In this document: positions 500 through 62,666 of the stretch, piece by piece
Position numbering within the stretch: the stretch's first letter is position 1
Layout of the letters: each line of letters begins with the position of its first letter
Assembly: GCF_004010195.1 (NCBI RefSeq)
Contig: NC_057718.1
Span: 8,925,267 to 8,989,266, forward strand
Origin: Chiloscyllium plagiosum
Lineage: Eukaryota
Direction: 5' to 3'
DNA: 64,000 nt
Position numbers and translations under genes: made by a program
Notes under the pieces: model-generated
What the model was told of the DNA's origin: nothing
Database searches by the model: none
The model's input: only the letters and a program-made list of their open reading frames with translations

Positions 500-640
500 T
501 AAAATCCGGAAGGGTCACTGAAATTGAAACATTAACTCTGCTTTCTGTCCACAGATGCTCCCAGGTCTGCTGAGTTTCTCCAGCAAGTTCAGTTTTTGTT
601 TCAGATTTCCCCCAGCACCCGTGGTTGCTTGTTTTATTAA
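500..640 (+). mobile_element. Decayed PLE terminal repeat (family D tail)
   Basis: GAAGGGTCACTG..GAAACATTAACTCTG..CACAGATGCT..CTGCTGAGTTTCTCCAGC resembles 31730-31830 and 45700-45830. Confidence 0.55.
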
Positions 641-1254
641 AAGCAAGTCCTTTGTTATGAAGCTTATAGCAGCTTGTCGATAGCAACACAGCATAGTTGA
701 TCATATGTTCAAGCTCTTGGATTAAATTAGTCTTTCAGACTACATTGAGGATCATCACCAGAAAAGGGTGTGCAGCATTTATACTGGAACTGGAAGATGT
801 TTTTGAAGGGGAAAGTTTTTGAAAGGGACTTTGTTGTCTTGTTTTTGGGCTCAGTTTGTTGTACAGTGATGCTTCCTTGGAGTAAAACACTTTATGTTTA
901 AGAGCAATGAACCCATCTAACACAGTGTAAACACCTCTGTCACAGGATATAAGGTCAACCGGAGGTTAATTGAAGTCCTTTTGAGTTATTGGGTGTCGAG
1001 TAGTCTAAGTTAATGTTTACATTCAACCTGTTACCAACACTAAAAGTGTAAGCAATGTTTCGTACTCCTGCTTATTATTTAATGGATTTTGTCTGGAATG
1101 TGGTGAGTGATGTGACACGGTCAGTGATGTCCAGATGGCTCTGTGCCTGGGAACCTTCCAATTTACTCAGGCAGGGCACAGAAATGCTTGAAGTGATTCA
1201 AGATCCTTGAACTTTGTGTGCAGAGTTGCGCCAGCATGTACACATACAGAACAC

Positions 1255-1414
1255 ATTTTATGAAAAGATATTTGGATAAATACACGAATAGGAAAGATTT
1301 GGAGGGATATGGGCCAGGAGCAGGCTGGTGGGACTAGTTTAGTTTGGGATTATGGTCGGCATGGACTGGTTGGACCGAAGGGTCTGTTTCTGTGCTGTAT
1401 GATTCAATAACTCT
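1255..1414 (+). mobile_element. CR1/HER1 LINE 3' end
   Basis: GAGGGATATGGGCC..GGACTAG..GGACCGAAGGGTCTGTTTC tail shared with many copies in the window. Confidence 0.85.
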
Positions 1415-2039
1415 GTGTGTGGTCTGGAGCATCTGCATGACTGTAAATGCATAAGCATGGAAACTACTTGTGTAGATGTGGGTGTACATAAAGCGCAGTT
1501 ACCTTGGGATTGCCACCCAGCTCCTCCCTGTATATCGAACAATCCAGCTCCAAATTCCTGGGTTTTGGAACCCAGCCTCCTCGGAAACTTGACGATGTCC
1601 TTCATTGGAATCATTCCTTCTAACCTTGGAACTGTTTTTACAGCACCAGCTGTTGTATTCAGTTTGCTCTTCACTTCCTAACACAATGAAAAGCTTTGGG
1701 ATATTTAAAATGCTATTCCTTGTGTCAGTGAAGGTGTAGGTGAGGTATCTGGGGAGGGTAGGTAGTGTTGCCACTCACTGGTGGTTAGTAGTCTGGAAAT
1801 CAAGTCCCAGAACAATCACAAAAGTTGACACTTCTAAAATGTATGCAAAATTCTTCAATTTGTCTGTCTTTCAGACTCAGGTTTACAGAAAGTACTGATC
1901 TGGTTTCTACACTTAACAAGATTTATTATTTATTGCACGTAATTTAACACTATTTACAGATAAACAGTTATTAACCACTGGCACATAACTCCATCTACAA
2001 CAACTCTAACCCCAACAAACTCCACCTTACACATCCATG

Positions 2040-2298
2040 CACCTGTACATACAGACACAGATACACAGACGCACAAATAGACAGACACACTGATATTCAC
2101 AGATATGTACACACAGGTGCACACACATACACACAGACAAAGGTACACAAATACACAGATACACAGAGGTACACACACACATATGCACACACACATATAC
2201 ACACATATACACACAAACACACACACATATACATGCACACACACAGATACACACTTAGATATGTACACATGCACACACAGCTACACACACACACACAC
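2040..2298. repeat. Degenerate (CA)n-rich microsatellite
   Basis: Visible ACAC/ATAC/AGAC runs. Confidence 0.95.
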
Positions 2299-3214: not shown

Positions 3215-3540
3215 TCACAGAGCCAAACAGCAAGGAAACAGACCCTTTGATCCAACTCATCCTTGCTGACCAGATATCCTAAATTAATCTAGTCCCATTT
3301 GCCAGTTTTTGCCCCATATCCCTCTAAACCCTTCCTATTCATTACCATCCAGGTGCCTTTTAAATGTTGTAATTGTACCAGCCTTCACCACTTCCTCTGG
3401 CAGCTCTTTCCATACACGCACCACCCTCTGTGTGAAAACGTTATCCCTTAGGTCCCTTTTAAATCTTTTCCCTCTCACCTTAAATCTGTGCCCCCTAGTT
3501 TTGGACTTCCCCATCCTGGGGAAAAGACTTTGGCTATTTA
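3215..3540 (-). mobile_element. CR1/HER1 LINE 3' fragment
   Basis: Translates SLFPRMGKSKTRGHRFKVRGKRFKRDLRDNVFTQRVVRVW (CR1 ORF2 C-terminus) followed by the CR1 tail. Confidence 0.9.
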
Positions 3541-3921
3541 GGCGATAGTGAGGACTGCAGATGTTGGAGATCAGAGTCAAGATTAGAGTGGTGTTGGAAA
3601 AGCACAGCAGGTCAGGCAACATCCAAGGAACAGGAAAATAGATGTTTCAGGCAGGAGCCCTTCATCAGGAATGAGGCAGGGAGCCTCCGGGGTGGAGAGA
3701 TAAATGGGAGGGGGGTGGGACTGGGAAGAAGGTAGCCAAGGGTACAATAGATGGATGGAGATGGGGATGAAGGTAATAGGTCGGAGAGGAGGGTGGAACG
3801 GATAGGTGGGAAGGAAGATTGACAGGTAGGACAAGTCAAGAGGATGGTGCTGAGCTGGAAGGTTGGAACTGGGGTAAGGTGGGGGGAGGGGAAATGAGAA
3901 AACTTGTGAAGTCCACATTGA
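3541..3921 (-). mobile_element. PLE family A 3' end (end of GIY-YIG coding region, C-rich spacer, hammerhead-bearing terminal repeat)
   Basis: Minus strand: AATGTGGACTTCACAAG..C-rich..ATTCCTGATGAAGGGCTCCTGCCTGAAACATC..CCAACATCTGCAGTCCTCAC; collinear with 48746-49234. Confidence 0.85.
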
Positions 3922-4164
3922 TCATTTTCTCCTCGAATAAAGGGAAGCCAATTTAAGACTGAAATGAGGAGGAATTTCTTCTCTCAGAGAGTTATATGGG
4001 TAGTTAAACCAAGTCTCATAGAATCCCTGCAGGGAGGGAACAGGACATTTGACCCAATGAGTCCACACCAACCATCTGACGAGTATCCCACTCAGACCCA
4101 TTCCCCTACCCAATATATTACATTTCCCCCTGATGAATGCACCTAACCAACACATCTTTGGACT

Positions 4165-4545
4165 AGGGTGTAGGTTTGCTCGCTGAGCTGTAGGTTTGAT
4201 ATCCAGACATTTCATTACCTGGCTAGGTAACATCATCAGTGGCAACCTCCAAGTGAAGCCCCCCCCCCCCTCCCCGTAGCCCTACACACAGATGAAAAAA
4301 AACACCATTTCGACTGGGACAACANNNNNNNNNNNNNNAACAGGAAATGACATCACCACAAACCCCAGGGACCCCATCCAGGACAAACATATAAATAGAA
4401 AGCAGTAGACAACAGCTTTGATTCACTTGGAGGTCACCACTGATGATGTTACCGAGCCAGGTAATGAAACGTCTGGATATCAAACCTACAGCTCAGCGAG
4501 CAAACCTACACCCTAAACCTCAACCTGAGCTACAAACCTTCACAA
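4165..4545 (+). mobile_element. PLE family B short insertion with inverted 5' terminal repeat and 11-bp TSD
   Basis: 4165-4258 is the reverse complement of about 4421-4514; TSD ATCTTTGGACT at 4154-4164 and 4546-4556; CACCATTTCGACTGGGACAAC (HHFDWDN) GIY-YIG remnant. Confidence 0.9.
4437..4476 (+). ncRNA. Minimal type-I hammerhead ribozyme motif (PLE family B)
   Basis: CCA-CUGAUGA-U-GUUACC(GAGCCA)GGUAAU-GAAA-CG-UC-UGG: core boxes intact, stem I CCA/UGG, stem II paired. Confidence 0.75.
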
Positions 4546-5400: not shown

Positions 5401-5404
5401 ATAG

Positions 5405-6512: not shown

Positions 6513-7059
6513 CAGTCCCCGTGGAGAGAAGCCAAGTTAATGGGTGGAATCCAATGCTGCCTGTGGGGGGGGGGGGAGAAAGGAGGGAAGAGGAAACTAA
6601 TTTAATGTGAGTCCAAAGTTCGGCATCCTAACAACAGATAAACTTTCACAATGCAGTTCTCGGAACTCCAAAGGTAGGTCAAACGTATTGGATACCGTTT
6701 TTGCATGTGTTAGTGTCTCACAAATGCTCATTCAAAGGCCATCAGGCTATAATTAAGTTTCCCCTTCCCTATCAAGTTCTGAAGGAGTGAGCGGTACATG
6801 GCTTCACATTCGCTTACTGTATATTGAAGATTGGCAACAGGAGAAGTAATGATCTCCTGGGAGGTGTTAAGATTTGCAACAAGCCTTCTGTCTGGGAGTG
6901 ACAAACATTTTGTCCTCTCTAGGAGTGTACTCATCATTCCTGGCCACACCTGAGATCCGCTGGACATGTGGAGTAACCAAAGGGGTGGAGGGTGGATATG
7001 GGTCAGGAGGGTGACCAAGGACAGATATCCAGGACGTACCTTCTTCCTGTGTCCATCTA

Positions 7060-7235
7060 TCTCTACCCAACCACCTTGCTCCCCTCTCCCCACCACCAAC
7101 CCCCCCAACCCTTTATCTGCAGCTCTCCTTACACCCACTCACAATCCCTGAAGAAGGGTTACACCCGAAACCTTGACTGCTCCGCCTCAATATGATGCCT
7201 GGCTTGCTGTGTTCTTCCAGCCTCCTGCTTGTCTC
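7060..7235 (+). mobile_element. PLE terminal repeat (A-related variant) with hammerhead-like motif
   Basis: C-rich spacer then CTGAAGA-A-GGGT(TAC)ACCC-GAAA-CCTT, followed by GATGCCTGGCTTGCTGTGTTCTTCCAGC. Confidence 0.7.
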
Positions 7236-7617
7236 CTCAGGAAGGGAGGTCACTGCACAGGATAGGGAACTAGGGGCCTGATTGTCCAGTCTGCAAGAGC
7301 CCACTCGGAGAGCCTGAGTGATGCTCCGAGCTCACGGAAAACCAATACAAGGTGCCCTGTACATATGGCACCAGGACCTTCAATCCTGTGAAATGGAAAA
7401 GGGGCAAGGACTTCGAGCCTGCTCCCCATACTCCCACATCCCCCTTCACCCCTCCCCATCACAGGACTTGCCAAATGAATCACAAATGTATCTGGAATGA
7501 GCTACCTTCAGGTACACGTGCGCAGACATCTGCCTCCAACATGTGACACTCACTGCTGTGCCCTACTTTCAACTTAGATCCCATTGCAAAACATTCTGCC
7601 CAATATTTAAATTCCAC

Positions 7618-8838
7618 TGTGTACTGTGTGCAGTTTTGGTCTCCTTACTTGAGAAAGGATGTCTTGGCACTGCAGGGGGTGCAGAGGAGGGTCACTAGGC
7701 TGATTCTGGAGTAGAGAGGTTTGGCTTATGAGGAGAGATTGAGTAGATTGGGATCATGTTCATTGGAATTATAGATCTTATAGAAACATACACAATTATG
7801 AAGGGAATAGATAAGATAGATAAGATGTTCCCACTGGGTGAGACTAGGACAAGAGGGTATAGCCTGGAAAAATAGTGCACTGAGAACAACCTAGCTCTCA
7901 TTGCCAGCAAAACCAAGGAACTCATTATTGACTTTCGGCGGGATGTTACTCATGCCCCCCCCCACACATCAACAGCACAAACAGTACAGCATTGGAACAA
8001 GTGGAGGGTGTCGAGCTCCTGGGAGTGGTCATCCACAACAAGCTTTCCTGGACTCTTCATGTGGACGCACTGGTTACAAAGGCCCAACAACGTCTCTTCG
8101 TCCTCAGGCAGCTGAGGAAATTTGGCATGATGGTGAAGACCCTTGCCAATTTTTATAGGTGCGCCATCGAGAGCATTCTGTCTGGATGTATCACTACCTG
8201 GTATGGCAACTGTACCATTCAAGATCAGAGACGGTTACAGAGAGTGGTGAACTTGACCCGGACAATCACAAAGGCCAACCTCCCATCTATAGAATCCATC
8301 TACCAGGCCCGCTGCCAAGGAAAGGCCGCCAGCATTCTCAAAGATCCATCCCACCCTGGCAATCTTTTTCTACAACCTCTACCATCAGGGAGAAGGTACA
8401 GAAGCCTAAACATGCACCAGCCGGTTTCAAAACAGTTTCTTCCCTGCTGTTGTTAGAATACTGAACAGACTCACAAATTCTTAACATTCACCTGTACCTG
8501 TGTTTAGTTTTTGCCACTGTTCACCTATTATTTACTGTCTATGCTACTTAACTCTGTGATCTGCCTGCATTGCTCACAAGACAAAGCTTTTCACTGTGCC
8601 TCGGTACACATGGCAATAAATTCAATTCAATTAAATTCAGTGGCGCAAGATGAGAGGAAGCAGGTTTAGAACTGAACTGAGAAGGAACATCTTTACCCAG
8701 AGGGTTGTTAATCTATGGAATTCCTTGCCCAGGGAAGTAGTGGACGCTATTTCAGTAATCACTTCTATGCTTATTGAGTGGCGGAGCAGGCTCCAAGGGT
8801 CGGACAGCCTACTCCTGCTCCTAGTTCTTATGTTCTTA
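7618..8838 (+). mobile_element. CR1 LINE fragment (7618-7870 and 8648-8838) split by a Rex1/Babar insertion
   Basis: YCVQFWSPYLRKDVLAL before the insertion; RFRTELRRNIFTQRVVNLWNSLP after it. Confidence 0.85.
7873..8638 (+). mobile_element. Rex1/Babar-clade LINE, RT C-terminus and 3' tail
   Basis: LLGVVIHNKLSWTLHVDALVTKAQQRLFVLRQLRKFGM..FYRCAIESILSGCITTWYGNC..DPSHPG..LPSGRRYRS; tail GCTTTTCACTGTGCCTCGGTACAC..AATAAATTCAATTCAA. Confidence 0.92.
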
Positions 8839-8854
8839 TGACCAGACCGGGTTG

Positions 8855-9015
8855 GGTAAAATCCTGGAATTCCCTCCCCAAGGGCATTGTGGATCTGCCT
8901 ACAGCACATGGACTGCAACAGCTCATGAAGGCAGCTCACCCCCACCTTCTCAAGCGGGGGTAACTAGAGATGAGCAACAACCATCGGCTAACCAGAAACA
9001 CCCACGTCCCATCAG
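8855..9015 (+). mobile_element. 3' end of a second CR1/L2-group LINE (candidate partner of the abundant 350-bp SINE)
   Basis: AAATCCTGGAATTCCCTCCC..GGACTGCA..AAGGCAGCTCACC..CCTTCTCAAG; same tail at 38400-38642 and 50745-50962. Confidence 0.75.
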
Positions 9016-9487
9016 TCAATTAATAAAGGATTTCAGAGGCTGCGCCATAATTATAACAATTACTGCAGAAGTAAATATTTTAAAATGATGTGAGAAGGCT
9101 TGAGGATACACAACTGGGTGCATAAATAACACAGCTATCATTTACCATGTTTAAACGTTTACCCATGTTAAAACTGCTTGAATACAAAAAAAATTAAAAA
9201 TATCTAAAACTGCTTGTTAAAGTACATCTTTTATATATAATGAAGCTTGTTTTTATTGGAAGTGTGAAACCTTGTGGAGCAGTTCCAATGATTAAAGTGT
9301 TGGGATTTCTATCTAGACATTAACAACTCCTATTAATGGCTATACTTCAACTTTCACTGATGTGGGCGATTCTGCAGTACTCAACCTCAGCAATAACTAG
9401 TCTACGCTTATCATCCATCACAAGTAATCTCTGCTTCTGATTCAGTTCAAAACGCCTTTGATCCAAAATTGAGTTTGTATGGTTTAT

Positions 9488-11590: not shown

Positions 11591-11811
11591 CTTAATTATA
11601 ACTTAATTAGATTGAGTAGAGGTCCCAAGATTTGCAACATTCCTGTTCTCTTGGGCATTAATGTTCAATCTTGTCAGAAAGTACTCTGGTCACTGCCTTC
11701 CCCTTCCCTATCTCATATCGGGATTCATTTGGTTCTTTTCAATCTATACATCCACTTGCTTTCATTTTCCCCGGAACATTTAAAGAATTACTACTCATTG
11801 TGTCATTTAGC

Positions 11812-12260
11812 ATGGAAACAAGCAGAAGACTACCCACCAGGATACATGAACATCAACTAGCCACAAAACGACATGGCCTTCTCTCACTAGTATCGTTACA
11901 TACAGATAAGGAAGGACACCACCTTGACTGGGACAACACATCCATCCTAGGACAAGCCAAACAGAGACACACATGAGAATTCCTATAATCATGGCATTCC
12001 AACTGAAACTCTATCAACAAACCATTGACTTGGATCCCATTTACCACCCCCTGAGAAAAATGGTAGGAAATGATATCACCACAGGAAATGACATCACCAT
12101 ACGAATTCACATCACCATCCCAAGGAAACCCAAACATATGAAGAGAAAGCAGGAAGCACCAGCAGTGCTTCGTCCAGAGGCTCACTGACGATGTTACCTA
12201 ATATGGTGATGAAATGTCTGAAAATGAACCTTCCAGCTCAGTGATCAAACCTACATCCAG
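11812..12260 (+). mobile_element. PLE family B 3' fragment (GIY-YIG endonuclease end plus terminal repeat)
   Basis: TRIHEHQLATKRH..LHTDKEGHHLDWDNTSILGQAKQRH; hammerhead-like CTGACGA-TGTTACC..GGTGAT-GAAA-TGTC at 12185-12218. Confidence 0.9.
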
Positions 12261-12750: not shown

Positions 12751-13039
12751 GAGTGGATGAATGGTGAGTGATTGCAAGAAGCTTTGTTGAAGTTTGATTA
12801 GGCTATTTTAAAAATGATATGGAATAATTCAAAATTGGTTTAAAGGTGATAGAGTTAAGTGTAGATTGAAACTCCACCGATGAAAGTGAAATAACACCTT
12901 CTCAGATTTCCCAGAAAAGACCTTTTGCATTTCGTACATAATGCAAAATGTTTTAAGCACAGTCATTCTACATAAAGGAAAGTGAAGGAGCTTACATATA
13001 ATGCATCTTTGGTGATATCTCAAGCATCGTTTAGTCAAT

Positions 13040-13460
13040 GGGGAGGCAAGGGCCTGTTGGTATTGTCGCTGGACTGTTAACCCAGAGACCCATTTAATGT
13101 TCTGGGGAAACAGGTTCGAATCCTGTTATAGCAGATGGTGGAATTTGACTTCAATAAATATCTGCCTGACCTGCTGTGCTTTTCCAGCACCACTCTAATC
13201 TCCAGCATCTGCAGTCCTCACTTTCGCCTATCTGGAATTAAGAGTCTAACGATGATCATGAAACAGTTGTCGATTCTTGGATTAACCCATCTGGGTCACT
13301 AATGTCGTTTAGGGAAGGAAACTTCCATCCTTACCCAGTCTGGCCCACATGTGACTCCAGACCCACAGCAATGTGGTTGACCCCCTAACTGCCCTCTGGG
13401 TAATTAGGGATGGGCAATAAATTTGTCTGGCCAGAAATTCTCATCCCATGAATGAATAAA
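13040..13460 (+). mobile_element. tRNA-derived shark SINE (about 350 bp) with a short PLE family A tail nested at about 13165-13228
   Basis: GGGAGGC..GGTTCGAATCC..GCAGATGGTGGAATTTG..AGGGAAGGAAAC..GTGACTCCAGACCCACAGCAATGTGG..GGGCAATAAAT; nested piece flanked by TATCTG repeats. Confidence 0.85.
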
Positions 13461-13469
13461 TCAAAACTG

Positions 13470-13610: not shown

Positions 13611-13704
13611 TAATGGTATCTTTATTAAATTGTTATGATATATAAGAAAAGGTTTAGTCAATTAAGTAATTAACACACTGATTTGTTATTGTATCCATTG
13701 GATT

Positions 13705-15999: not shown

Positions 16000-16860
16000 G
16001 TTTGAGGATAGATTGAAGACGTCGGAATTGTTCTCCCTGGAGAGAAGCAGGCTGCGAGGAGAGTTAACAGGGGTATCAAGACCATATGCGGGCTGGACAG
16101 AGCAAATAGGGAGAAGCTGTTCCCACTTGTAAAAAGGAACAAGAGGAAGACAACATCGATTTAAAGTTTAAAAAATCACCCAACACGAGGTTATAGTCCA
16201 ACAGGTTCATTTGGAAGCTCTAGCTTTTGTAGCGCTGCTCCTTTATCAGATGGCTGTGGAACAGGATCGTAAGATGCTGAATTTATAGCAAACAATTACA
16301 GTGTCATGCAACTGAAATGATATATTGAACAAACCTAGATTGGGGGTGTTGTATGATTTTAAACAGTTAACAGTAATCTCGGTTTGTTCAATATATCACT
16401 TCAGTTACATGACACTAATCGTTTGCTATAAATTCTGCGTCTTATGATCCTGTCCCTCAGCTACCTGCTGAAGGAGCGGCGCTCCGAAAGCTGGTGCTTC
16501 TAAATAAACCTGTTGGACTATAGCCCAGTGTTATGTGATTTTTAACTTTGTCCACCTCAGTCCAACACTGGCACCCCAAAATCATAGATTTAAAGTGACC
16601 TGCAAACAAAGGTGATGTGAGAAAAGAAACCCTTTCAACAGCAACTAGTTAGGGTCTGGAATGCATTGCCTCAAAATGTCATGGAGACAGGTTCAATTGA
16701 AGCATTCAAGAGGGCATTGGATGGCTATTTGGATGGAAATATGTGCAAGGGTACAGCAATAAGGCAGAAGGTTGGCATTAGGTAGTGATGAGCTTGTTTG
16801 AAGAGCTGGTGTAGGCAAGATGGGCCAAATGGCCTCCTTCTGCACAGAAACAATTCAGCA
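16000..16860 (+). mobile_element. Old CR1 3' fragment split by a PLE palindrome
   Basis: TTGTTCTCCCTGGAGAGAAG..GGGAGAAGCTGTTCCCAC..TCTGGAATGCATTGCC..GGGCCAAATGGCCTCCTTC. Confidence 0.75.
16168..16582 (+). mobile_element. PLE family C palindromic insertion with degenerate hammerheads and 14-bp TSD
   Basis: Arms of about 170 bp (16168-16341 and 16376-16546) are inverted; CTGCTGA-A-GGAGC(GGC)GCTCC-GAAA-GCTG at 16465-16493; TSD CAT(C/A)GATTTAAAGT at 16154-16167 and 16583-16596. Confidence 0.8.
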
Positions 16861-19498: not shown

Positions 19499-19529
19499 TG
19501 AGGGGTACAACAGTACAAAGTCTGGTTCG

Positions 19530-26640: not shown

Positions 26641-27587
26641 TTCTGGATGTAAGTTTGCTCACTGAACTGGAAGGCTCGTACGGACCAAACATTGAACTAC
26701 AGAATCAATCATCCCAACACTCACAAACAAAGCTACATTAGAACATTATTTCAAAGACCAACCACACACTGCAGCACAGAGGAACTACACAGAGCAGAGG
26801 AAAATCACCAATACAGCGTATTCAAAAAGAACAGGTACCCAATGAACACATTCCACCGATTTCTGAGCAACAAACCCCAACAAGCAGACAAAACACATCG
26901 AGGGACCCTAGCCACTCTCCCCTACATCAAAGACATCTCGGAAATGGCTGCCAGACTACTCAGACCCCTTGGCATCATGGTAGCCCACAAACCCACCAAC
27001 ATCTTAAAACAGCAGCTAATGAACTTGAAAGACCCTACACAGACAACAAGCAAAACTAATATATTATTTACCAAATACCTTGCAAGAACTGTAACAAGCA
27101 CTACATTGGACAAACAGGTAGAAAACTAGCCACCAGGATACATGAACATCAAATAGCCACAAAAAGACATGACCCACTAGTATCTTTGCATACAGATGAG
27201 GAAGGACATCACTTTGACTGGGACAACACATCCATCCTTGGACTAGCCAAACAGGGACACGCGCCAGAATTTCTCAAAGCACGGCACTCCATCTGGAGCT
27301 CTATCAACAAACACATTGACTTGGATATTATTTACCAACCCCTGAGAAAAAGAACAGGAAATGACACCGCTGCAGGAAATGACATCACCACAGGAAATCA
27401 CATCATAAACCCAAGGAAACCCAAACACATAAATAAAAGGCAGGCCATACCACCAGTGCTTCCCTGGAAGTTCACAGATGGTGTTACCTAGTGTGGTGAC
27501 AAAACGTCTGAAAATGAACCTTCCAGCTCAGTGAGCAAACTTACATCCAAAACCTTAACCTGAGGTACAGATCTTCTCAAAACTCGC
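26641..27587 (+). mobile_element. PLE family B 3' fragment with short inverted 5' piece
   Basis: NHPNTHKQSYIRTLFQR..TLPYIKDISE..; IIYQIPCKNCNKHYIGQTGRKLATRIHEH (GIY-YIG); 26641-26677 inverts 27516-27553; GATCTCA at both flanks. Confidence 0.93.
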
Positions 27588-27879
27588 GATCTCAAACTTT
27601 TGCCACATACAGTGGTGACGTTTTGAGGTTCTGCCTGACCAATGTGAAACAGACTGATAGGTGCATATCAGTTAGTAGTTATAAAAAAATTCTGAATGAT
27701 CAGGTTTCCATTTATGAATATCCATCCTCTTACAATATCAAGGGCTAAATAAGTTGTGTGCATGTCTGAGTGAATGAAAGAGAAGTGGGGCGGCATGAAG
27801 AGAAATGGAATGGTGACTGGTGACCAACACTTAGAATCAAAAATAGACACCACGGTGTTGAAACTGGAACATGGCCTTC

Positions 27880-30600: not shown

Positions 30601-30962
30601 CAGTTGCTCGGGCATGGGTTGGTCCAGCAAGGCTATTCCCTGACTCTTAATCTGGAGGGGGTGTTAGGAACCCTATACCTAGCTTTACATTCAATGATGA
30701 AAGACTATCTTAACATTAACTGTTCCCAAGTATTTGAAATGGTCTGATTTTGATATTGTGCCCCCTTTAACCATTGAGCCCCGCCCCTCCAACCGCCAAA
30801 TCGTCTCCGCCACATCTGCTCCCAGGAGGACCAGTTCCAAAACCGTACAACCCAGATGGCCTCCTTCTTCAAGGACCGCAATTTCCCCCCAGACGTGGTC
30901 GACGATGCCCTCCACTGCATCTCCTCCACTTCCCGATCCTCCGCCCTTGAGCCCCGCCCCTC

Positions 30963-31471
30963 NNNNNNNNNNNNNNNNNNNNNNNNNNNNNNNNNNNNNN
31001 NNNNNNNNNNNNNNNNNNNNNNNNNNNNNNNNNNNNNNNNNNNNNNNNNNNNNNNNNNNNNNNNNNNNNNNNNNNNNNNNNNNNNNNNNNNNNNNNNNNN
31101 NNNNNNNNNNNNNNNNNNNNNNNNNNNNNNNNNNNNNNNNNNNNNNNNNNNNNNNNNNNNNNNNNNNNNNNNNNNNNNNNNNNNNNNNNNNNNNNNNNNN
31201 NNNNNNNNNNNNNNNNNNNNNNNNNNNNNNNNNNNNNNNNNNNNNNNNNNNNNNNNNNNNNNNNNNNNNNNNNNNNNNNNNNNNNNNNNNNNNNNNNNNN
31301 NNNNNNNNNNNNNNNNNNNNNNNNNNNNNNNNNNNNNNNNNNNNNNNNNNNNNNNNNNNNNNNNNNNNNNNNNNNNNNNNNNNNNNNNNNNNNNNNNNNN
31401 NNNNNNNNNNNNNNNNNNNNNNNNNNNNNNNNNNNNNNNNNNNNNNNNNNNNNNNNNNNNNNNNNNNNNNN
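30963..31471. other. Assembly gap (N run)
   Basis: N characters. Confidence 1.
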
Positions 31472-31550
31472 ACCTATCGCATTTCCAATGCCCCTCCCCC
31501 AAGTCCCTCCTCCCCACCTTTTATCTTAGCCTGCTGGACACACTTTCCTC

Positions 31551-31586
31551 ATTCCTGAAGAAGGGCTTATGCCCGAAACGTCAATT
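31551..31586 (+). ncRNA. Minimal hammerhead ribozyme motif (PLE family A)
   Basis: AUUC-CUGAAGA-A-GGGC(UUAU)GCCC-GAAA-CG-UC; core intact, stem I weakened. Confidence 0.7.
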
Positions 31587-31729
31587 CTCCTGTTCCTTGG
31601 ATGCTGCCTGACCTGTTGCGCTGTTCCAGCAACACATTTTCAGCTCTGATCTCCAGCATCTGCAGTCCTCACTTTCTCCCCTTTAACCATCCCCTCTTGA
31701 AGGTATGACAAAGACCAGTCCTTGGTGTC

Positions 31730-31830
31730 TCAGTTCTGAGGAAGAGTCACTGGACCCAAAACGTTAACTCCGACTTCTCTCCACAGATGCTGCCAGACTT
31801 GCTGAGCTTTTCCAGCAATTTCTGGTTTTG
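31730..31830 (+). mobile_element. PLE family D terminal repeat with degenerate hammerhead
   Basis: AGUU-CUGAGGA-A-GAGUC(ACUG)GACCC-AAAA-CG-UU-AACU: stem I AGUU/AACU pairs perfectly, GAAA mutated to AAAA. Confidence 0.7.
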
Positions 31831-33510: not shown

Positions 33511-34216
33511 CTGGACAATTGGAAACCTGATGCTGTGTGATTTTTAACTTTGTCCACCCCTGTCCAACACTGGCACCTCCACATCGTGCGTGGAAACAGG
33601 CATTGGAGAGCAGCGTTCCCTTCCACACGTTTTTGATTTGAGTGTCCAACACAGTAATGGGTTCAACAAGAGGGCCTTACTAAAGTGAACTCAAGATGTG
33701 TTCCCCGAAGGTGTGTGCCTCATGGTAGACATCACATGACCATGGCAGACTACGAGTGACATTTCTACATATTACATTTCAATTCAAGCATCTGCCTTTT
33801 TACACAGAAGAGAAAAAGGAATGCGTTATTATGTACATTTTGAGTTACCCAAATTATCAACTATATACATGACTAGTCTCACACGTTAGCAATTTGTTAT
33901 TCCCATCAGTCTATATATATAAATGCATGGGAATTGAATCATGTTGGGTTTTTTCTGGTACATGTGTGTTATCATTGGCTGATAATCTGAGTGATATTAT
34001 TTCCTCAGAAAGTGTCATTCATTCTTGCTCGAGCTCACTATTGTTCTGTTTCAGTTGTTTGGTTAGTTATGGACCTTTGAGACTGATGTAATCAGTTGGT
34101 GTGCAATCTTTGCAGATAGTGCACTCACCTCTTCCTGAGCAGCCACCTGCAACTGAAGAACAGTTTCTTGCTCTGACAACGGTGCTTTCCCCAGACTGAA
34201 CATGCAGTCTGTCATG

Positions 34217-35849: not shown

Positions 35850-35946
35850 CACATTCCTCATGAAGGGCTTATGCCCGAAACGTCGATTCTCCCGCTCCTC
35901 AGATGCTGCCTGACCTGCTGTGCTTTTCCAGCACCACACTCTTTGA
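35850..35946 (+). mobile_element. PLE family A terminal-repeat fragment
   Basis: ATTC-CTCATGA-AGGGCTTATGCCC-GAAA-CGTC (core G mutated to C) then GATGCTGCCTGACCTGCTGTGCTTTTCCAGCACC. Confidence 0.85.
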
Positions 35947-45494: not shown

Positions 45495-46005
45495 TCACAG
45501 GATGAGGGCATCACTGATCAGGCCCAGCATTTGCTGCCCATCCCTAGTTGCCCAGAGGGCAGTTAAGAGTCAACCGCATTGCTGTGGGTCTGGAGTTACG
45601 TGGAGGCCAGACCAGGTAAGGGTGGCAGTTTCCTTCCCTAAAGGACATTAGTGAACCGGATGGATTTTTCCCGCAGCGACCCACAATAGATTCATCGTAA
45701 ATAAAAACCGAAAGAACTGCAGATGCAGGAAATCAGAAACAAAATCAGAGATTGCTGGAAAGCTTCAGCAGGTCTGTGGAGGGAAATCAGGAGTTAATAT
45801 TTTGGGTTCGGTGATCCTTCCTTAGAACTTTCCAGAAATTTCTATTACTAATGGTTTCATGGTCATCATTAAACTCCTAATTCCAGACTTTTATTGAATT
45901 CAAATTCCACCAGCTGCCGTGACAGGATTTAAACTCAGGTCCCCAGAGCATTATTAGGGTCTTTGGATTAATAGTCTATCAATAATACCACTAGGCTATT
46001 GTTTT
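45495..46005 (-). mobile_element. 350-bp tRNA-SINE with a nested PLE family D tail (45700-45830)
   Basis: SINE body on both sides; nested minus-strand AGTT-CTAAGGA-AGGATCACCGAACCC-AAAA-TATT-AACT degenerate hammerhead. Confidence 0.8.
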
Positions 46006-47744: not shown

Positions 47745-48745
47745 CCAATAAGACATAGGAGTAGAAATAGGCCATTCAGCCCATCAAGTCTGCTCTACCA
47801 TTCAATGAGATAATGGCTGATCTGATCATCCTCAGCTCTAATTTCCAGCATCTCCCTTTAACCATTGATTATTTTACTGATTAAAAATCTAACTCAGCCT
47901 TGAATAACTTAATACTGCAGCATCGTCACCCCTCAGTGATAAGGAATTTGACAGATTCTCAGCCTCTGAGAGAAGTAAGTTTGCAGGTAACACCAAAATT
48001 GGGGGTGCATTGAACAATGAAGAAAGTTACATCAGAGTACAACAAGACCTTGATGGGTCGATGGCTGAGGAGTGGCAGATGGAGTTTTAATTAGAAAAAT
48101 GTGAGGTGTTGCGTTTTGGAAAGGCAACCCAGGACAGGACTTATACACTTAATGATAAGGTCCTGGGGAGTGTTGCTGAACAGAGACCTTGGAGTGTAGG
48201 TTAATCGTTTCTTGAATGTGCAGTCGCAGGTAGATAGGATAATGAAGAAGGTGTTTGGCATGCTTGCCTTTATTAATTGAGTATAGGAGTTGGGAGGTCA
48301 TGTTCCAGCTGTACAGGACATTGGTTCGACCACGTTTGGACTACTGCATTCAGTTCTAGTCTCCCTGCTATAGGAAAGATGTTGTGAAACTTGAAAGCGT
48401 TCAGAAAAGATTTACAAGGATGTTACCAGAGTTGGAGGGTTTGAGCTATAGGGAGAGGCTGAATAGGCTGGGGCTGTTTTCCCTGGAACCTCAGAGACTG
48501 AGGGGTGACCTTATAGAGGTTTATAAAATCATGAGGGGCATGGATAAGGCAAATAGACAAGACCTTTTGCCTGGGGTGGGGGAGTCCTGAACTAGAGATT
48601 TAAGGTGAGAGGGGAAAGATTTAAAAGGGTTCTAAAGGGAAATTTTTTCAAGCAGAGGGTGGTGTGTGTATGGAATGAGCTGCCAGAAGAAGTGGTGGTG
48701 GCTGGTACAATTACAGCATTTAAAAAATGTCTGGATTGGTACATG
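47745..48745. mobile_element. Adjacent CR1 fragments: minus-strand tail (47745-47975) and plus-strand RT end (47976-48745)
   Basis: KLESVQKRFTRMLPELEGLSYRERLNRLGLFSLE; RGERFKRVLKGNFFKQRVV. Confidence 0.9.
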
Positions 48746-49234
48746 AACACCTCAAATTCCACCTCGGAACACTTCAACCCCAGGGCATCAATGTAGACTT
48801 CACCAGTTTCCTCATTTCCCCTCCCCTCACCTTACCCCAGTTCCAATCTTCCAGCTCAGCACTGTCCCCATGACCTGTCCTACCTGCTAATCTCCCTTCC
48901 TACCCATCCGCTCCACTCTCCTCTCTGACCCATCACTTCCATCCCCACCCCCATTCACATATCGTGCTCTTTGTTACCTTCCCCCACCCTCTTCTCTGAC
49001 CTATCACCTCCGTCCCCACCCCCCTCCACCTATGTTGGCTACCTTCTCCCCAGCCCCATCCCCCTCCCATTTATCTCTCCACCCTGGAGGCTCCCTGCCT
49101 CAATTCCTGATTAAGGGTTTTTGCCCAAAACGTCAACTTTCCTGCTCCTCGGATGCTGCCTGACCTACTTTGCTTTTCCGGCACCACTCTAATCTAGACT
49201 CTGGTTTCCAACATCTGCATCCTCACTTCTGCCT
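48746..49234 (+). mobile_element. PLE family A 3' end
   Basis: EHLKFHLGTLQPQGINVDFTSF (end of GIY-YIG region), C-rich spacer, degenerate hammerhead CTGATTA-AGGGTTTTTGCCC-AAAA-CGTC. Confidence 0.88.
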
Positions 49235-52635: not shown

Positions 52636-53016
52636 GTTGAAACTTTATTGCTGGAACAGCACAGCAGGTCAGGCAGCATCCAGGAAACAGGAGATTCGAC
52701 GTTTCGGGCACGAGCACTAGTGCATCAGATTTTTCTTTCATGACCATCGATGATTCATTCTTGATCACGAATTCCACTTTTCATTGAAGTCGTTTTCTAA
52801 CCAACCTGTTCAGAGATGCTCACTGATACTTCCAAGGAAGAGATAAGGTAGCTAGCCAACAACTTCCTCATGGTGGGGGAGTCTAAAATTATAGAGTTTA
52901 AGGTGAGAGGGGAGAGATATAAAAGGGTCCAGAGGGGCAATTATTTCACACAAATGGTGCTGTTCCAGCAATAAAGTTTCAACTTTGATCTCCAGCATCT
53001 GCAGACCTCACTTTCT
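52636..53016 (+). mobile_element. Complex PLE family A insertion containing a copy of its own target region; 15-bp TSD
   Basis: TSD CATCGATGATTCATT at 52621-52635 and 53017-53031; inverted PLE piece 52636-52711; captured target 52712-52959; PLE tail 52960-53016. Confidence 0.85.
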
Positions 53017-53139
53017 CATCGATGATTCATTCTTGATCACGAATTCCACTTTTCATTGAAGTCGTTTTCTAACCAACCTGTTCAGAGATGCTCACTGGTA
53101 CTTCCAAGGAAGAGATAAGGTAGCTAGCCAACAACTTCC

Positions 53140-53435
53140 TCATGGTGGGGGAGTCTAAAACTATAGAGTTTAAGGTGAGAGGGGAGAGATATAAAAGGGT
53201 CCAGAGGGGCAATTTTTTCACACAAATGGTGATGTGTGTCTGGGAAGGGCTGCCAGAGGGAGTAGTGGAAGTGACTACAATCTTGTTATTTAAGAGACAT
53301 TTAGACAGGTATATGGATGGGATAGGTATGGAGGGATATGGACCAAACACAGGCAAATGGGACTAGTTTAATTGTAAAAACTGGGCAGCATGAGTAAGAT
53401 GGGCCGAAGGGCCTGTTTCCATGCTGTAGACCTCA
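53140..53435 (+). mobile_element. CR1 3' fragment
   Basis: FKVRGERYKRVQRGNFFTQMVMCVWEGLPEGVVE..FKRHLDRYM. Confidence 0.9.
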
Positions 53436-57648: not shown

Positions 57649-57765
57649 GCAGAAGTGGGTACTGCAGATGCAAGAGGTTAGAGTCAAGATTAGAGTGGTG
57701 CTGGAAACGCATAGCAGGTCAGGCAGCATCCAAGGAGCAGGAAAATCAACTTTTTGGGCAAAGGC
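57649..57765 (-). mobile_element. Short PLE family A tail with 16-bp flanking direct repeat
   Basis: CCTTCCATCAATTGAG at 57633-57648 and 57766-57781. Confidence 0.85.
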
Positions 57766-58329
57766 CCTTCCATCAATTGAGACAGCCTGAGTCAAAAAAG
57801 GTTTTGATGATACTGCAAAGCCAGATCTTCAATAGTGAAGAATTTGAAATTATTGTAAAAATAGGTAGAGGTTTGTCCGGGTTTAATATTGGCATTATAT
57901 GTTGCCATTATACAAAGAGCAATCAGGCAGCGTACATGGTACAGTAGCCATGTGAACCCACTGCAAACATTTGCAAAATCCATTGCTGTAATGAGTGCCC
58001 ACTGCTGTCATTGTTGGATATTACATCACCTGAAATTTAGGTGTAATGCTGTGACCAATCTTTCATCCTATGTTGGTCTAGAGGCTTTGTGCTGGTCTAT
58101 GCTGAAGGATCAACCACAAGTAAGTCGGAGGCTGCTGTCTTAAGTAACAGAAGATAGATTATTAATGCTAATAACTGGAAACGTGTTACATTAATACCAG
58201 GGCGCATTGCTTAATACTAAGACGAGGTCAGTAAGTCATCATGTCTCCATGAGGGAATTATGTCTAACAGGTGTTTGCCAAATTGCCCAATGCTTAATCC
58301 AGTGGTTGGGTTAAATATCAGAATGGGGA

Positions 58330-58518
58330 GGACTCCAGGTTAGAGTCAAATGAGAGTGGTGCTGGAAAAGCACAACCGATCAGGCAGTATCCGAGCAGCA
58401 GAAAAATCAATGATTCGGGCAATAGCCCTTCATCAGGATTTTCCTACTCCTCGGATGCTGCCTGACCTGCTGTGCACTTCCAACACCACTCTAATCTTGA
58501 CTCTGATCTCCAGCATCT
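58330..58518. mobile_element. PLE family A head-to-head palindrome
   Basis: GAGTGGTGCTGGAAAAGCAC..GCCCTTCATCAGG inverted against CGGATGCTGCCTGACCTG..CACCACTCTAATCTTGACTCTG. Confidence 0.82.
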
Positions 58519-59429: not shown

Positions 59430-60330
59430 ATTCACTGGTTGTGGGATCCTGCTGTGCTCATAGAGGCTGCTGCTTGTCTAAGTGCCAGACGTTGTTTCTT
59501 TTGGCTGTGAAGATGTAATGAGGCAATATGGATTTTTTTTTGCTCTTTCTTAAAAGAAGTCTTAATGTGCCCGAATATTGCTTTCCTTTTTTGTTATTGT
59601 GTTAATTTTGTTGCCTTTGGTAACTGGTTTATTTTTGTGCCGTTTGAGTTTAATATTTGGGCATATCCTTTACTGACACATTAATGACCTCCTCTGCCGA
59701 TCCGTCAAAGTTAAAATCCACTGCAGCATCATCTTCCTGGTTTTCCCTCTCTCCCCCCCACAAACACCCACCCACCCACTCGCACTATGTACCGAAGCCT
59801 GTGTACTGTAGAAACGACTGGGTTCTAGGGAATAGACTGTGGCTGGGGGGAGCTGTAACTAGTGGAAGGCATCATGAGTGAATGGCACAGGCCCCAGTAC
59901 ATGTGCAGTTTGGTTTTTTTAACGACTACCCAAACCCGTGACCTTTGTGTCGCCTCCAGTGGGTTACACAACGTTGCAAATATTTGTTTGCTGTTCCTGC
60001 ATTAAATCTTTTCATTTCACTGTGGGATGGAAAGTGCTGCTTTAAACTGAAACCACAGAAAGACCTCTCGAAGAATAACAAGTAATACCGCCCTCCTGTT
60101 CATGTAAATTTTGCAGGCGTTAATGAGACCAGCACACACCAGAACCATTGATCTCAGCTCCTCTGAATCTTCGACTATTCAAAGTGAAACTTTAATGATT
60201 TTGGACATCTGTTTGAAAAGTTTAAAATCAGGATTCTTTGACACCCAAGCACCCAGCCTCCACATATTATGGAGTTATCAGAGCACAGAAGGAGGCCATT
60301 AAGCACATTAACTCTGTGACAGCTCGCTGC

Positions 60331-60720
60331 AGAGAGTGAGGAGAGTGAGGATTAGACACTGAGAGTGAGGATGAGGGACTAAGAGTGAGGATGAGGCACT
60401 GAGAGTGTGGATGAGGGATTGAGAGTGAGGATGAGGGACTGAGAGTGTGGATTAGACACTGAGAGTGTGGATGAGGGATTGAGAGTGAGGATGAGGGACT
60501 GAGAGTGTGGATGAGGGACTGAGAGTGAGGATGAGGCACTGAGAGTGAGGATGAGGCACTGAGAGTGAGGATGAGGCACTGAGAGTGAGGATAAGGGACT
60601 GAGAGTGAGGATGAGGCACTGAGAGTGTGGATTAGACACTGAGAGTGAGGATGAGGCACTGAGAGTGTGGATTAGACACTGAGAATGAGGATGAGGGACT
60701 GAGAGTGAGGATGAGACGCT
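60331..60720. repeat. 20-bp minisatellite, about 19 units
   Basis: GAGAGTG(A/T)GGATGAGG(G/C)ACT with a variant unit GAGAGTG(A/T)GGATTAGACACT. Confidence 0.97.
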
Positions 60721-62455
60721 GTGGGGCTTGCTGGATGAGGGGCTGATTACTGTCTGTTACAGGGGTGGTTGTAGGAATTGATTACACTGTGGAAGTGTAA
60801 GGGGGAAGGCTCTCACAGAGTCCTCTCTTGTCAGAAATACCAAATGCTTGGCTGGAACTGAAGTGGGTTCAGAAAATAATGTACTTGATGTACATAAAAT
60901 AATGTCATTTCACAAGGTGATTTAAAAACAGAGATTTTTATCTTTTTGTGATGAATTATATGGTGATCTTTAATACGGAATGTTACTGTGTCTGTTTTAG
61001 TGTCATTAGTGTCTGGGGTAAAATTAATTTTCTAAAATGGAGTCACACTGGAAGATTGCCTGGGAAGCGTTGGTCCACACATCACTTTTTCCTGAGTTCA
61101 CTTACCCCTTAAGAATATGAGCTTCTTGTGTAATGGAATAAAATTGTTTATCTTTCCTTAAAATGCTCTTCCCTAGGTGATTAGCAGCAGAATTGAAAGG
61201 AGGACTGTGTCGACATGTGTTTCTTTTTATCTATAAAGCCGGCATTTGCAACCTCCTGCTGGTGCCTGTGTATCATTACCTGCTTTAGGACTCCCTCAGG
61301 GCTATGAACATATGAACAATGAACAAGAGCAGACCATTCGGCCCTTCTAGCCAGCTCCGCCATTTAGTAAGATCATGGCTGGTCTGATATCAATCTCAAT
61401 TCTACATTCCGGCATACCTCCAATAATCTTTCATCCCCATGGTAACCAAGAATCTATTGTGCTCTGCCTTAAAAGCAATTCAGCAATTTTGCATCTATTG
61501 CTTGTTGAGCAATGGAATTCCAAAGACTCTCAACCCACTGACAGGAAAATACATTTCCTCACCTGTTTTACATGGATGACCCTTAAACTGAGGCCTGTAG
61601 TGTAGGCCGGGTGGTCTACCAGGAGTATTAAGTGTCCAGGCACATTAAGGATGCAGGGGTATTAAGAGTCATTTTAAAGGGACGTAGGGAGAGAATTAGA
61701 GTCTAGGGCCAGTGTTGCTGAAGGCACAGCCTCCATTGAAGAAAAGGAAGAATATTCATAAGATCATCAGAACTAGGAGCAGGAGTAGGCTATGTAGCCC
61801 ATCGAGCCTGCTCTGCCATTCAATAAGATCACAGCTGGTCTGATTTTAATCTCAACTCGACGTTCCTGCATCTCCCGATAATCTTTCATCACTTGGTGAT
61901 CAAAAATCTATCTCCCTCTGCCTGAAAAATATTTAAAGATTCTGCCCCCACTACCTTTTGATGAAGGGTATTCCAAAGGCTCACGCCCTTCTGAGAGAAA
62001 AGACATGTTTCTCACCTCTCTGTCAAATGGGTGCCCCATTGTATTTAAACTCTAACTCTCTCGTTCTAAACTTCCCCACAAGGGAAACACTCTTTCCACA
62101 TCCACCCAGTCAAGTCCCCTCAGGATCTTAAACGTTTCAATTCAGTCACCTCTGACTCTTCTAGGATACTTCACAACAATACTGGCCTTGCCTTTTCTCA
62201 TAAGGCAATCCAGTCAGTCCAGATATTAACCTAATAAACTTTCTCTGAACTACTTCCAATATATTAACTTCCTTCTGTAACTATGGTGAGCAGTACCATA
62301 TGCTGTACTCCAGCTGCAATTGAACCAATGATCTGTAAAACTGAAGCATGACCTCCACACTCTTGCATTCAATTCCCCTTGCAAGCAACAGAACAATCTG
62401 TTTGCTTTCCTGATGACTTGTTGTACCTGTACACTAACTTTCTATGATTCATTTT

Positions 62456-62666
62456 GAGAGCATGGTGCTGGAAAAGCACAGCAGGTCAGACAGCATCCGA
62501 GGAGCAGGAGAATCGACACTTCGGGCATAAGCCCCTCATTCCTGATGAAGGCCTTATGCCTGAAACGTCGATTCTCCTGCTCCTTGGATGCTGCCTGACC
62601 TGCTGTGCTTTTCCAGCACCACACTCTCGACTCTGATCTCCAGCATCTGCAGTCCTCACCTTCTCC
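62456..62666 (+). mobile_element. PLE family A head-to-head palindromic insertion
   Basis: 62456-62534 inverts 62550-62628; approximate TSD TTCTATGATTCA (62440-62451) / TTCTGTGATTGA (62667-62678). Confidence 0.88.
62538..62573 (+). ncRNA. Minimal hammerhead ribozyme motif (PLE family A)
   Basis: AUUC-CUGAUGA-AGGC(CUUAU)GCCU-GAAA-CG-UC-GAUU: intact core, 4-bp stem II, GUC cleavage triplet. Confidence 0.72.

What the first reader, a model, noticed from the sequence alone, without database searches (positions are those of the whole stretch)
500..62666. At least four distinct Penelope-like families each carry a minimal hammerhead ribozyme; about 15 copies in 64 kb
Seen in sequence: four terminal-repeat families whose flanking sequences differ share the hammerhead layout CUGANGA-stem II-GAAA-2 nt-UH. 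Family A: GGGC(UUAU)GCCC, GAAA-CG-UC (3637-, 31551+, 35853+, 49104+, 58405-, 62538+, variant 7146+). Family B: GUUACC/GGUAAU, GAAA-CG-UC (4200-, 4437+, 12182+, 27474+). Family C: GGAGC/GCUCC, GAAA-GC-U (16220-, 16462+). Family D: G(G/A)GUC/GACCC, (G)AAA-CG-UU (505+, 31733+, 45792-). Stem II differs in sequence but stays paired, and stem III is reduced to a palindrome (ACGU or AGCU). Established: PLE terminal repeats carry minimal type-I hammerheads proposed to cleave as dimers. Inference: this genome may hold very large numbers of such motifs, and intact intronic copies could cleave host pre-mRNA or release small retrozyme-like RNAs.
Basis: partly seen in the sequence, partly recalled or inferred. 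Interest (0 to 1): 0.7.

Follow-up and report, generated by a model that had tools for sequence, protein, structure and literature searches.

The report
Decayed Penelope-retroelement hammerheads, shark-like genome
The window is strewn with end-pieces of Penelope-like jumping genes that carry a tiny self-cutting RNA motif, an arrangement already described in other animals; most copies here are mutated or folded into hairpins, and nothing suggests that they cut the host's own RNAs.

Summary
All 16 listed copies are at the stated places and the motif is far above chance (7 full-core hits against 0.08-0.09 in shuffles). They are 3' pseudo-LTR ends of Penelope-like elements (PLEs): B follows an RT-thumb/GIY-YIG ORF, A an RT-thumb fragment of a Neptune-type protein; target-site duplications, inverted 5' copies and one-sided tails fit PLEs. 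But only 7 of 16 keep all 12 core bases (none of C or D), 3 of 16 pass the published descriptor, and core bases have mutated as often as the rest (10/142 against 39/588). A and D share downstream sequence, so three lineages rather than four. The two best copies lie in head-to-head insertions; the nearest same-strand, same-family full-core pair is 7.7 kb apart; no tandem array carries a motif; no host exon was found; 4,302 RNA reads showed no pile-up of ends. Verdict: new members of a known kind (Cervera and de la Pena 2014), at high density (one motif per 3.3 kb here). Host-RNA cleavage and retrozyme release are unsupported. The scan has already noted the same thing many times elsewhere in this genome (102 notes fit).

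The parts
504..600 (+). Family D end-piece, cut off inside the hammerhead core (CUGAN missing, stem II broken); not a ribozyme
3540..3922 (-). Family A 3' end (C-rich 3' UTR, pLTR, tail); hammerhead 3668-3641 keeps 12/12 core bases but palindrome and first helix I pair are broken
   Evidence: (I5)
4164..4541 (.). One family B insertion: inverted tail-less arm (4164-4253, hammerhead 4239-4206 on -) head to head with a forward copy carrying the end of the GIY-YIG ORF and hammerhead 4440-4473 (+); target-site duplication at 4150 and 4542 (14 of 15 match). Both motifs 12/12 core and pass the published descriptor
7050..7237 (+). Variant related to A; hammerhead 7148-7174, 12/12 core but palindrome lost (CC) and one helix I pair; left boundary approximate
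11806..12258 (+). Family B (second subfamily) 3' end with broken GIY-YIG ORF; hammerhead 12185-12218, 12/12 core, UG in place of CG, passes the published descriptor
13162..13234 (+). Family A tail-only piece, no hammerhead
16168..16582 (.). One family C insertion: inverted tail-less arm (hammerhead 16249-16221 on -, 10/12 core) head to head with a tailed forward copy (hammerhead 16465-16493, 10/12 core, G at the cleavage position); target-site duplication at 16154 and 16583 (13 of 14); folds as one hairpin of -240 kcal/mol
26653..27590 (+). 5'-truncated family B element: RT thumb and GIY-YIG endonuclease ORF (frameshifted) followed by pLTR; hammerhead 27475-27508 has 9/12 core
   Evidence: (PF01541 E 1.8e-4)
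30775..31677 (+). 5'-truncated family A element with RT-thumb fragment (30805-30957, 86% identical to P0001), assembly gap, pLTR and tail; 13-bp target-site duplication at 30762 and 31678; hammerhead 31555-31582 has 12/12 core and palindrome but the first helix I pair is lost by CpG decay
31732..31830 (+). Family D end-piece; hammerhead 31736-31765, 11/12 core (G12 lost)
33536..33585 (+). Family C tail-only piece
35852..35942 (+). Family A end-piece starting about 5-7 nt before the core; hammerhead 35857-35884, 11/12 core (G5 lost)
45700..45829 (-). Family D end-piece with tail; hammerhead 45825-45796, 10/12 core
48736..49230 (+). Family A 3' end with the last codons of the endonuclease (weak match to the end of P0001), 3' UTR, pLTR; hammerhead 49107-49134, 10/12 core
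52636..52711 (-).
52957..53017 (+). Family A tail-only piece between two copies of a 213-bp duplication (210 of 213 identical)
57651..57775 (-).
58337..58518 (.). Head-to-head family A insertion: minus arm with hammerhead 58436-58409 (11/12 core, palindrome lost) joined to a plus arm that begins exactly at the first base after the cleavage site (58437)
62450..62666 (.). Palindromic family A insertion: inverted tail-less arm 62456-62541 and forward tailed copy with hammerhead 62542-62569 (12/12 core, palindrome, two helix I pairs); whole region folds as one hairpin of -151 kcal/mol that buries the motif

Best explanation
These are dead, 5'-truncated insertions of three lineages of Penelope-like retrotransposons (a Neptune-type group A/variant/D, a Poseidon-type family B, and family C). 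Each insertion keeps the 3' pseudo-LTR, which holds a minimal type-I hammerhead. In the active parent element the motif was under selection: it can only form an active site with a second copy (palindromic helix III, short helix I), as in a tandem pLTR-ORF-pLTR transcript, probably helped by the element's own protein, and trims the element RNA near the ORF start (inferred from other PLEs, not shown here). Reverse transcription starts at the tail or 26-38 nt inside it and often stops at or just before the hammerhead, giving about 100-130-nt stubs; some insertions also carry an inverted, tail-less second arm (shown in the sequence; the cause, fold-back of the cDNA or priming from both target strands, is inferred). 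Once inserted the copies decay neutrally, fastest at the CpGs that stud the motif, and are read passively on either strand inside host transcripts without being cut to any notable degree.
For: ORFs: B copies follow an RT thumb and GIY-YIG domain 70-84% identical to shark proteins that carry RVT_1 or RT motifs; the A copy at 31555 follows a fragment 86% identical to P0001, which has a YIDD RT motif, a Cys-X2-Cys linker and a GIY-YIG match. PLE architecture: target-site duplications of 10-20 bp at 5 insertions (B pair, C pair, A at 31555, 57776, 62542; 16 insertions examined), four head-to-head insertions, tail on one arm only in three of them, as described in PMC8557442 and PMC11167929. In B an open frame starts at the first bases of stem II, as in the anole Poseidon element. 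Decay: non-CpG core 10/142, stem II 6/122, other 39/588 (Fisher p 0.85); CpG columns 36/120; window CpG observed/expected 0.27. 9 of 14 copies compared begin between -18 and +15 of the core's first base. In all 15 correctly registered copies the hammerhead dimer is predicted less stable than two free monomers. RNA reads lie on both strands (799 and 941 mean depth over the cleavage-site bin) and run through the site. Published: single min-HHR inactive, dimers weak; anole motif cuts only with PLE protein and no RNA-seq ends at the site.
Against: Family C has no ORF in the window and D only shared pLTR sequence with A, so their PLE identity is by architecture. The decay test has few events and cannot exclude weak selection. 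The RNA test used one informative run (2% of it read, single-cell polyA, fragmented), covers only A and D, and reports ends only above a fifth of local depth. Energies ignore tertiary contacts, magnesium and protein. RNA reads carry the intact base more often than DNA contigs (G12 of D: 82 of 166 reads against 16% and 22% of contig depth), which neutral decay alone does not predict, though mapping bias or younger, less methylated copies in transcribed regions could. No whole genome was available.
Confidence: 0.88

Rival explanations
1. Intact dispersed copies cut host pre-mRNAs, pairing in trans or over long distance through the palindromic helix III, perhaps helped by PLE protein, and so act as a genome-wide layer of RNA decay or processing.
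For: 7 full-core motifs in 62,884 called bases, about 110,000 per Gb if the window is typical; A and D sequences are present in polyA RNA (4,302 of 12,955,460 reads); the anole PLE motif does cut when PLE protein is present.
Against: Only 4440+ and 62542+ keep core, palindrome and first helix I pair and both sit beside their own antisense arm; no host exon found; no reads on the unique flank 31865-32374 and no pile-up of ends; core not protected from mutation; intact bases are not depleted in reads that span the site.
Confidence: 0.05
2. The short copies are non-LTR retrozymes: tandem units cut out by flanking hammerheads, circularised and re-inserted as a non-autonomous family.
For: Many copies are only the pLTR; non-LTR retrozymes are proposed to derive from PLE pLTRs and were reported in one chondrichthyan genome; a few contigs join the A tail back to the A motif (25 and 23 contigs in X1, 25 and 13 in X11, spacing not known).
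Against: None of 25 tandem-repeat rows overlaps a motif; those joints make up about 6e-5 and 8e-5 of the depth at the A tail (X1 joints were not all counted); retrozymes carry canonical hammerheads in tandem; a unit cut out by the ribozyme should begin at the cleavage site, and only 1 arm in the window does (58437).
Confidence: 0.04
3. In these families the motif's main effect is structural rather than catalytic: the folded hammerhead stalls reverse transcription and its short stems let the cDNA fold back, producing the stubs and palindromes.
For: 9 of 14 copies start within -18 to +15 of the core; summed contig depth falls from 10.9 million over stem II to 1.6 million 90 bases upstream; both A palindromes are joined inside the motif at short self-complementary stretches.
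Against: The B and C inversions are joined away from the core; the fall in depth is confounded with subfamily differences upstream; a stub could also begin there because the pLTR or its transcript begins there; two junctions are anecdotal. It adds to the best explanation rather than replacing it.
Confidence: 0.25
4. The hammerhead layout is a chance resemblance inside ordinary repeats.
For: Rfam release 15 gave no hammerhead family match up to E 1; copies within a family are not independent.
Against: 7 against 0.08-0.09 and 3 against 0.005 in shuffles; at least three unrelated lineages share the core with different but paired stems, the extra base at 9.1, the G-C pair at 10.1-11.1 and the palindrome, all listed for PLE min-HHRs.
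Confidence: 0.01

Closest known systems
Minimal hammerheads (min-HHR) in the pLTRs of metazoan Penelope-like elements (Cervera and de la Pena 2014, PMC4209133)
   Same: CUGANGA, one extra base, G-C-opened helix II, GAAA, two palindromic bases, UH, short helix I; several families per genome; mostly solo copies of truncated elements; opposite-strand pairs 100-700 bp apart.
   Different: No cartilaginous fish in the parts read or in supplementary file 2 (file 1 could not be searched). Family A has only two contiguous helix I pairs before a U-U mismatch and fails the published descriptor, like the 2-bp helix I of D. virilis. Density is higher: 3 descriptor hits in 63 kb here against about 4,000 and 9,000 per genome in coelacanth and Xenopus.
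Poseidon element of Anolis carolinensis (PAc; Frangieh et al. 2024, PMC11167929)
   Same: Family B: RT then GIY-YIG without Zn-finger linker, open frame starting at stem II, tail present at one end only.
   Different: Only truncated, mutated copies here; cleavage site 28 nt after that ATG in B against 26 in PAc; activity untested.
Neptune clade PLEs (linker motif as described in PMC8557442)
   Same: Family A protein relative P0001 has RT motif, Cys-X2-Cys in the linker and GIY-YIG.
   Different: Clade assignment rests on one partial protein and no tree; D and the variant are tied to A by pLTR sequence only.
Non-LTR retrozymes (PMC7229834; bioRxiv 10.64898/2026.07.22.740005)
   Same: Short hammerhead-bearing repeats related to PLE pLTRs.
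   Different: Retrozymes are head-to-tail arrays, mostly with canonical hammerheads, expressed as circles; here copies are solo or head-to-head and minimal.

Membership tests
PLE min-HHR | CUGANGA and GAAANNUH core | tested here: met
   Complete in 7 of 16 copies (A, variant, B); in C the two copies are broken at different positions; in D G12 is restored in the loose-end consensus of both DNA runs
PLE min-HHR | Helix II of 3-7 bp opened by G10.1-C11.1 with an extra base at 9.1 | tested here: met
   All families; G-U from CpG decay in several copies
PLE min-HHR | Palindromic 15.2-16.2 in place of helix III | tested here: met
   CG in A, B, D and GC in C; Watson-Crick in 9 of 16 copies
PLE min-HHR | Helix I of at least 3 bp (published descriptor) | tested here: inconclusive
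   Met in B (3-4 bp), D (4 bp) and C 16465 (3 bp with G-U); family A has 2 bp, a mismatch, then 1 bp
PLE min-HHR | Self-cleavage as a dimer or with PLE protein | not testable with these tools
   Needs in vitro assay; RNA reads gave no end pile-up, as for the anole element
Penelope-like elements (EN+) | RT and C-terminal GIY-YIG ORF upstream of the pLTR: families A and B | tested here: met
Penelope-like elements (EN+) | RT and GIY-YIG ORF: families C, D and the 7148 variant | tested here: inconclusive
   No ORF attached in the window; D and the variant share pLTR sequence with A; no outside loci found
Penelope-like elements (EN+) | Inverted 5'-truncated copy and 30-40-bp tail at one end only | tested here: met
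   Four head-to-head insertions (A twice, B, C); tail of about 26, 34 and 38 nt on the forward arm only in B, C and A 62542
Penelope-like elements (EN+) | Full element with two pLTRs in partial tandem | not testable with these tools
   No full-length copy in the window; no genome held
Non-LTR retrozymes | Head-to-tail tandem units of 150-450 bp each with a hammerhead | tested here: not met
   nearest same-strand same-family pair 660 bp, both defective
Non-LTR retrozymes | Canonical type-I hammerhead with helix III and loop 1-2 contacts | tested here: not met
   All motifs minimal
Non-LTR retrozymes | Expressed as circular RNA | not testable with these tools
   The one informative RNA run is polyA-selected and showed no joint among the 15 rows listed

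The most novel reading that the evidence does not exclude
With on the order of 100,000 full-core motifs per gigabase and both strands read inside host transcripts, same-family copies find each other in long pre-mRNAs or in trans and, helped by PLE protein when an active element is expressed, cut host RNAs: a retroelement-built, genome-wide cleavage layer in cartilaginous fish that the host keeps in check by CpG decay and antisense hairpins.
Probability: 0.05. Interest if true: 0.75.

Novelty: new member of a known kind. Interest (0 to 1): 0.17.

Why it matters
As it stands it is a clean textbook case in a lineage that the papers read here do not treat in detail: PLE hammerheads at about one motif per 3.3 kb. 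The density makes such a genome a good place to settle an open question named in PMC8557442 and PMC11167929, namely what PLE hammerheads do: the distribution of 5' ends and inversion junctions over many thousands of copies could tell cleavage of the template from stalling or fold-back at the motif. Host-RNA cleavage would matter more, but nothing here points to it.

Tried and rejected
Whole-genome counts: no genome is held for this window. Outside loci: exact-pattern scans for family A and C motifs found 0 stretches in metagenome contigs and 0 in viral contigs. Rfam: no hammerhead family up to E 1; the MIR447 and mir-3127 matches at 62.5 kb are the palindrome, far below gathering scores. PDB: no match for the B endonuclease piece. 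Host gene: splice-signal candidates gave no recognisable protein by eye; 172 of 178 stop-free frames of 62 aa or more outside self-repeats were scanned against Pfam (of the other 6, four had been scanned and two are alternative frames over the B ORF) and gave three RVT_1 matches and one weak DUF7067 match below cut-off; small exons would be missed, so 'intronic' is neither shown nor excluded. Run search: no RNA holder listed for 7001-17000. Run X22 laid 0 reads, no test. A conserved hairpin downstream of the motif in A, D and the variant: 5 pairs, none with a change on both sides, so not supported as a selected structure; the same stretch opens with an ATG and reads MLP(D/G)LL in A, D and the variant, left undecided. 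A cis heterodimer of A 31555 and D 31736 (181 nt apart) was rejected: helix I strands do not match and D lacks G12. The row for D 501 was out of register and is not counted; that copy was read. P0014 did not align to the family B relative P0006. Literature: 'cartilaginous fish' with 'hammerhead ribozyme' and 'retrotransposon' gave 0 papers; 'shark' gave one, where the word refers to the shape; one search listed none on elasmobranch PLEs; these searches cover open-access papers only.


Full report
1. Observation. A descriptor that demands the 12 core bases and a stem II finds 7 motifs, against a mean of 0.08 in 25 dinucleotide shuffles. The descriptor published with PMC4209133 (read in its supplement) finds 3, all of family B, against 0.005 in 200 shuffles; without helix I it finds the same 7 against 0.09. 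The motif is therefore real. The per-copy table (the copy at 505) is less tidy than the finding suggests: 7 of 16 keep the whole core, none of them in C or D; 3 of those 7 also keep the CG palindrome (4440+, 31555+, 62542+), and 2 also keep the first helix I pair (4440+, 62542+). A, D and the 7148 variant share a downstream segment and A and D part of the tail, so the window holds three lineages, one with subfamilies. Across families the stems change on both sides while staying paired.

2. What the elements are. The host is shark-like: the best relatives of the element proteins are named from Chiloscyllium, Stegostoma and Hemiscyllium. Family B at 26653-27590 encodes an RT thumb and a GIY-YIG domain (Pfam E 1.8e-4, just under the cut-off) 70-84% identical to P0002 and P0008, and the B copies at 4276-4504 and 11806-12270 carry the end of the same ORF. 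Family A at 30805-30957 is 86% identical to P0001, which shows a YIDD RT motif, a Cys-X2-Cys linker and a weak GIY-YIG match; the linker marks Neptune and Nematis elements in PMC8557442, so I call A Neptune-type and B Poseidon-type without a tree. Target-site duplications of 10-20 bp flank 5 of 16 insertions examined, and a 48-bp one a sixth. Four insertions are head to head, and in three the tail stands on the forward arm only: both are PLE hallmarks, and they are the only evidence for C, which has no ORF here. In B an open frame starts at stem II, as in the anole element.

3. State of the copies. Non-CpG core positions differ from the canonical base at 10 of 142 sites, stem II at 6 of 122, other pLTR positions at 39 of 588 (core against other, Fisher p 0.85); CpG columns at 36 of 120; the window's CpG ratio is 0.27 (14 copies in register, the variant and the 505 copy left out; few events). 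That is neutral decay as far as it can be seen. The parent families had the intact layout: at 31583 the pairing G is read in 80% of contig depth in both DNA runs and in 1,551 of 1,722 RNA reads, and at 31745 the G that completes stem II of D is the majority (63 rows of that table were not shown). For G12 of D only 16% and 22% of contig depth, but 82 of 166 RNA reads, show G.

4. Abundance. 19 whole or partial motifs in 62,884 called bases is one per 3.3 kb, and 7 full cores one per 9 kb, about 110,000 per Gb if the window is typical. On 900 bases holding one A and one D copy, 144,211 and 113,306 contigs of two DNA runs were laid, with summed depth about a million times the unique flank; the tool warns that this is no copy number, so I take it only as 'very many'. 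No genome was available for a count.

5. Could they cut host RNA? A minimal hammerhead needs a partner on the same strand. The nearest same-strand, same-family pair is 660 bp apart with both copies defective; the nearest with two full cores is 7,745 bp apart. The two best copies sit next to their own antisense arm: 62450-62670 folds as one hairpin of -151 kcal/mol, the C pair as one of -240, and the B arms match at 86 of 90 bases. Nearest-neighbour energies put the dimer above two free monomers in all 15 registered copies (no tertiary or protein terms). No host exon was found. In run X21, 4,302 of 12,955,460 reads lay on the two repeats, on both strands, none on the unique flank 31865-32374, and the table of places where many molecules begin or end was empty. 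This is a weak test: 2% of a fragmented single-cell polyA run, A and D only, threshold a fifth of local depth. It agrees with the literature: single min-HHRs were inactive and dimers weak; the anole motif cut only with PLE protein, was not needed for insertion, and left no ends in RNA-seq; 8 of 9 Xenopus dimers did not cut. No tandem array in the window carries a motif, and tail-to-motif joints are about 1 in 15,000 of the A depth, so retrozyme release has no footing here.

6. Mechanism. Shown: PLE 3' ends with a minimal hammerhead, truncated, often inverted, decaying. Inferred: in the active element the motif works as a dimer or with the element's protein on the tandem transcript; reverse transcription begins in or near the tail. 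9 of 14 copies compared start between -18 and +15 of the core (for D the reference may itself be truncated), and both A palindromes are joined inside the motif, one of them exactly at the first base after the cleavage site, where helix I also offers two bases of microhomology. Stalling and fold-back at the motif is a fair extra reading (0.25); two junctions do not prove it.

7. Literature seen. PMC4209133: parts 1-2 of 4 of the text and parts 2-3 of supplementary file 2 (file 1 not searchable). PMC11167929: parts 1-2 of 4. PMC8557442, PMC6155905, PMC7229834: passages. bioRxiv 10.64898/2026.07.22.740005: parts 1 and 3 of 5, passages, discussion; its supplements, which name the chondrichthyan studied and its families, could not be seen and may already list these repeats. 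Hammerhead numbering and the slower rate or loss of cleavage for particular triplets are recalled, from no call.

8. Verdict. A real, known kind of element in a new host, mostly dead. The scan has recorded the same thing across this genome (102 notes fit); those notes agree with but were not used as support for the tests above. Interest 0.17.

Noticed in passing
window 3-460 (-): An open frame running off the window's left end (244 aa stop-free from 734) whose last 150 residues look like the N-terminal part of a PLE reverse transcriptase (DKG and PKIHK-RPIVS motifs, recalled); no Pfam match. A longer, fairly intact element may lie just outside the window.
   Followed up: partly
window 52588-53229: Complex family A insertion: a minus-strand tail-less piece inside an exact 48-bp duplication, and a plus-strand tail piece of the same subfamily between two copies of 213 bp (210 identical). 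Unusually long target duplications, possibly one event primed from both strands.
   Followed up: partly
window 58436-58437: The plus arm of this head-to-head insertion begins exactly at the first base after the hammerhead cleavage site; either a copy of a cleaved RNA or fold-back at helix I.
   Followed up: partly
window 31601-31630, 31787-31817, 7192-7221: A, D and the variant share a 30-nt segment that opens with ATG, reads MLP(D/G)LL and holds a 5-bp hairpin with a variable 8-nt loop; ORF start or RNA signal, undecided.
   Followed up: partly
window 27063-27353: The family B endonuclease is 58-60% identical to Clonorchis sinensis proteins (P0003, P0004, P0009) and 53% to a protein labelled Cetobacterium (P0010); ordinary conservation, contamination or horizontal transfer not tested.
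   Followed up: no
P0005, P0007, P0011, P0013: Shark gene models named MAP3K7, CUEDC2, WBP2-like and EYA3-like isoforms contain family B endonuclease sequence: exonised PLE pieces or annotation artefacts.
   Followed up: no
window 31678 (run X21): 195 reads continue behind the A tail into one shared sequence (agreement 0.84) with an AATAAA signal: one expressed locus elsewhere has an A copy at its 3' end.
   Followed up: no
window 60341-60715; 24292-24459: Minisatellites of 20 bp (18.8 copies) and 29 bp (5.2 copies), without hammerhead.
   Followed up: no
window 9500-11450, 18844-19686, 43225-43485 and others: LINE fragments with RVT_1 matches (CR1/L2-like by recall); about 32% of the window is self-repetitive.
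   Followed up: no
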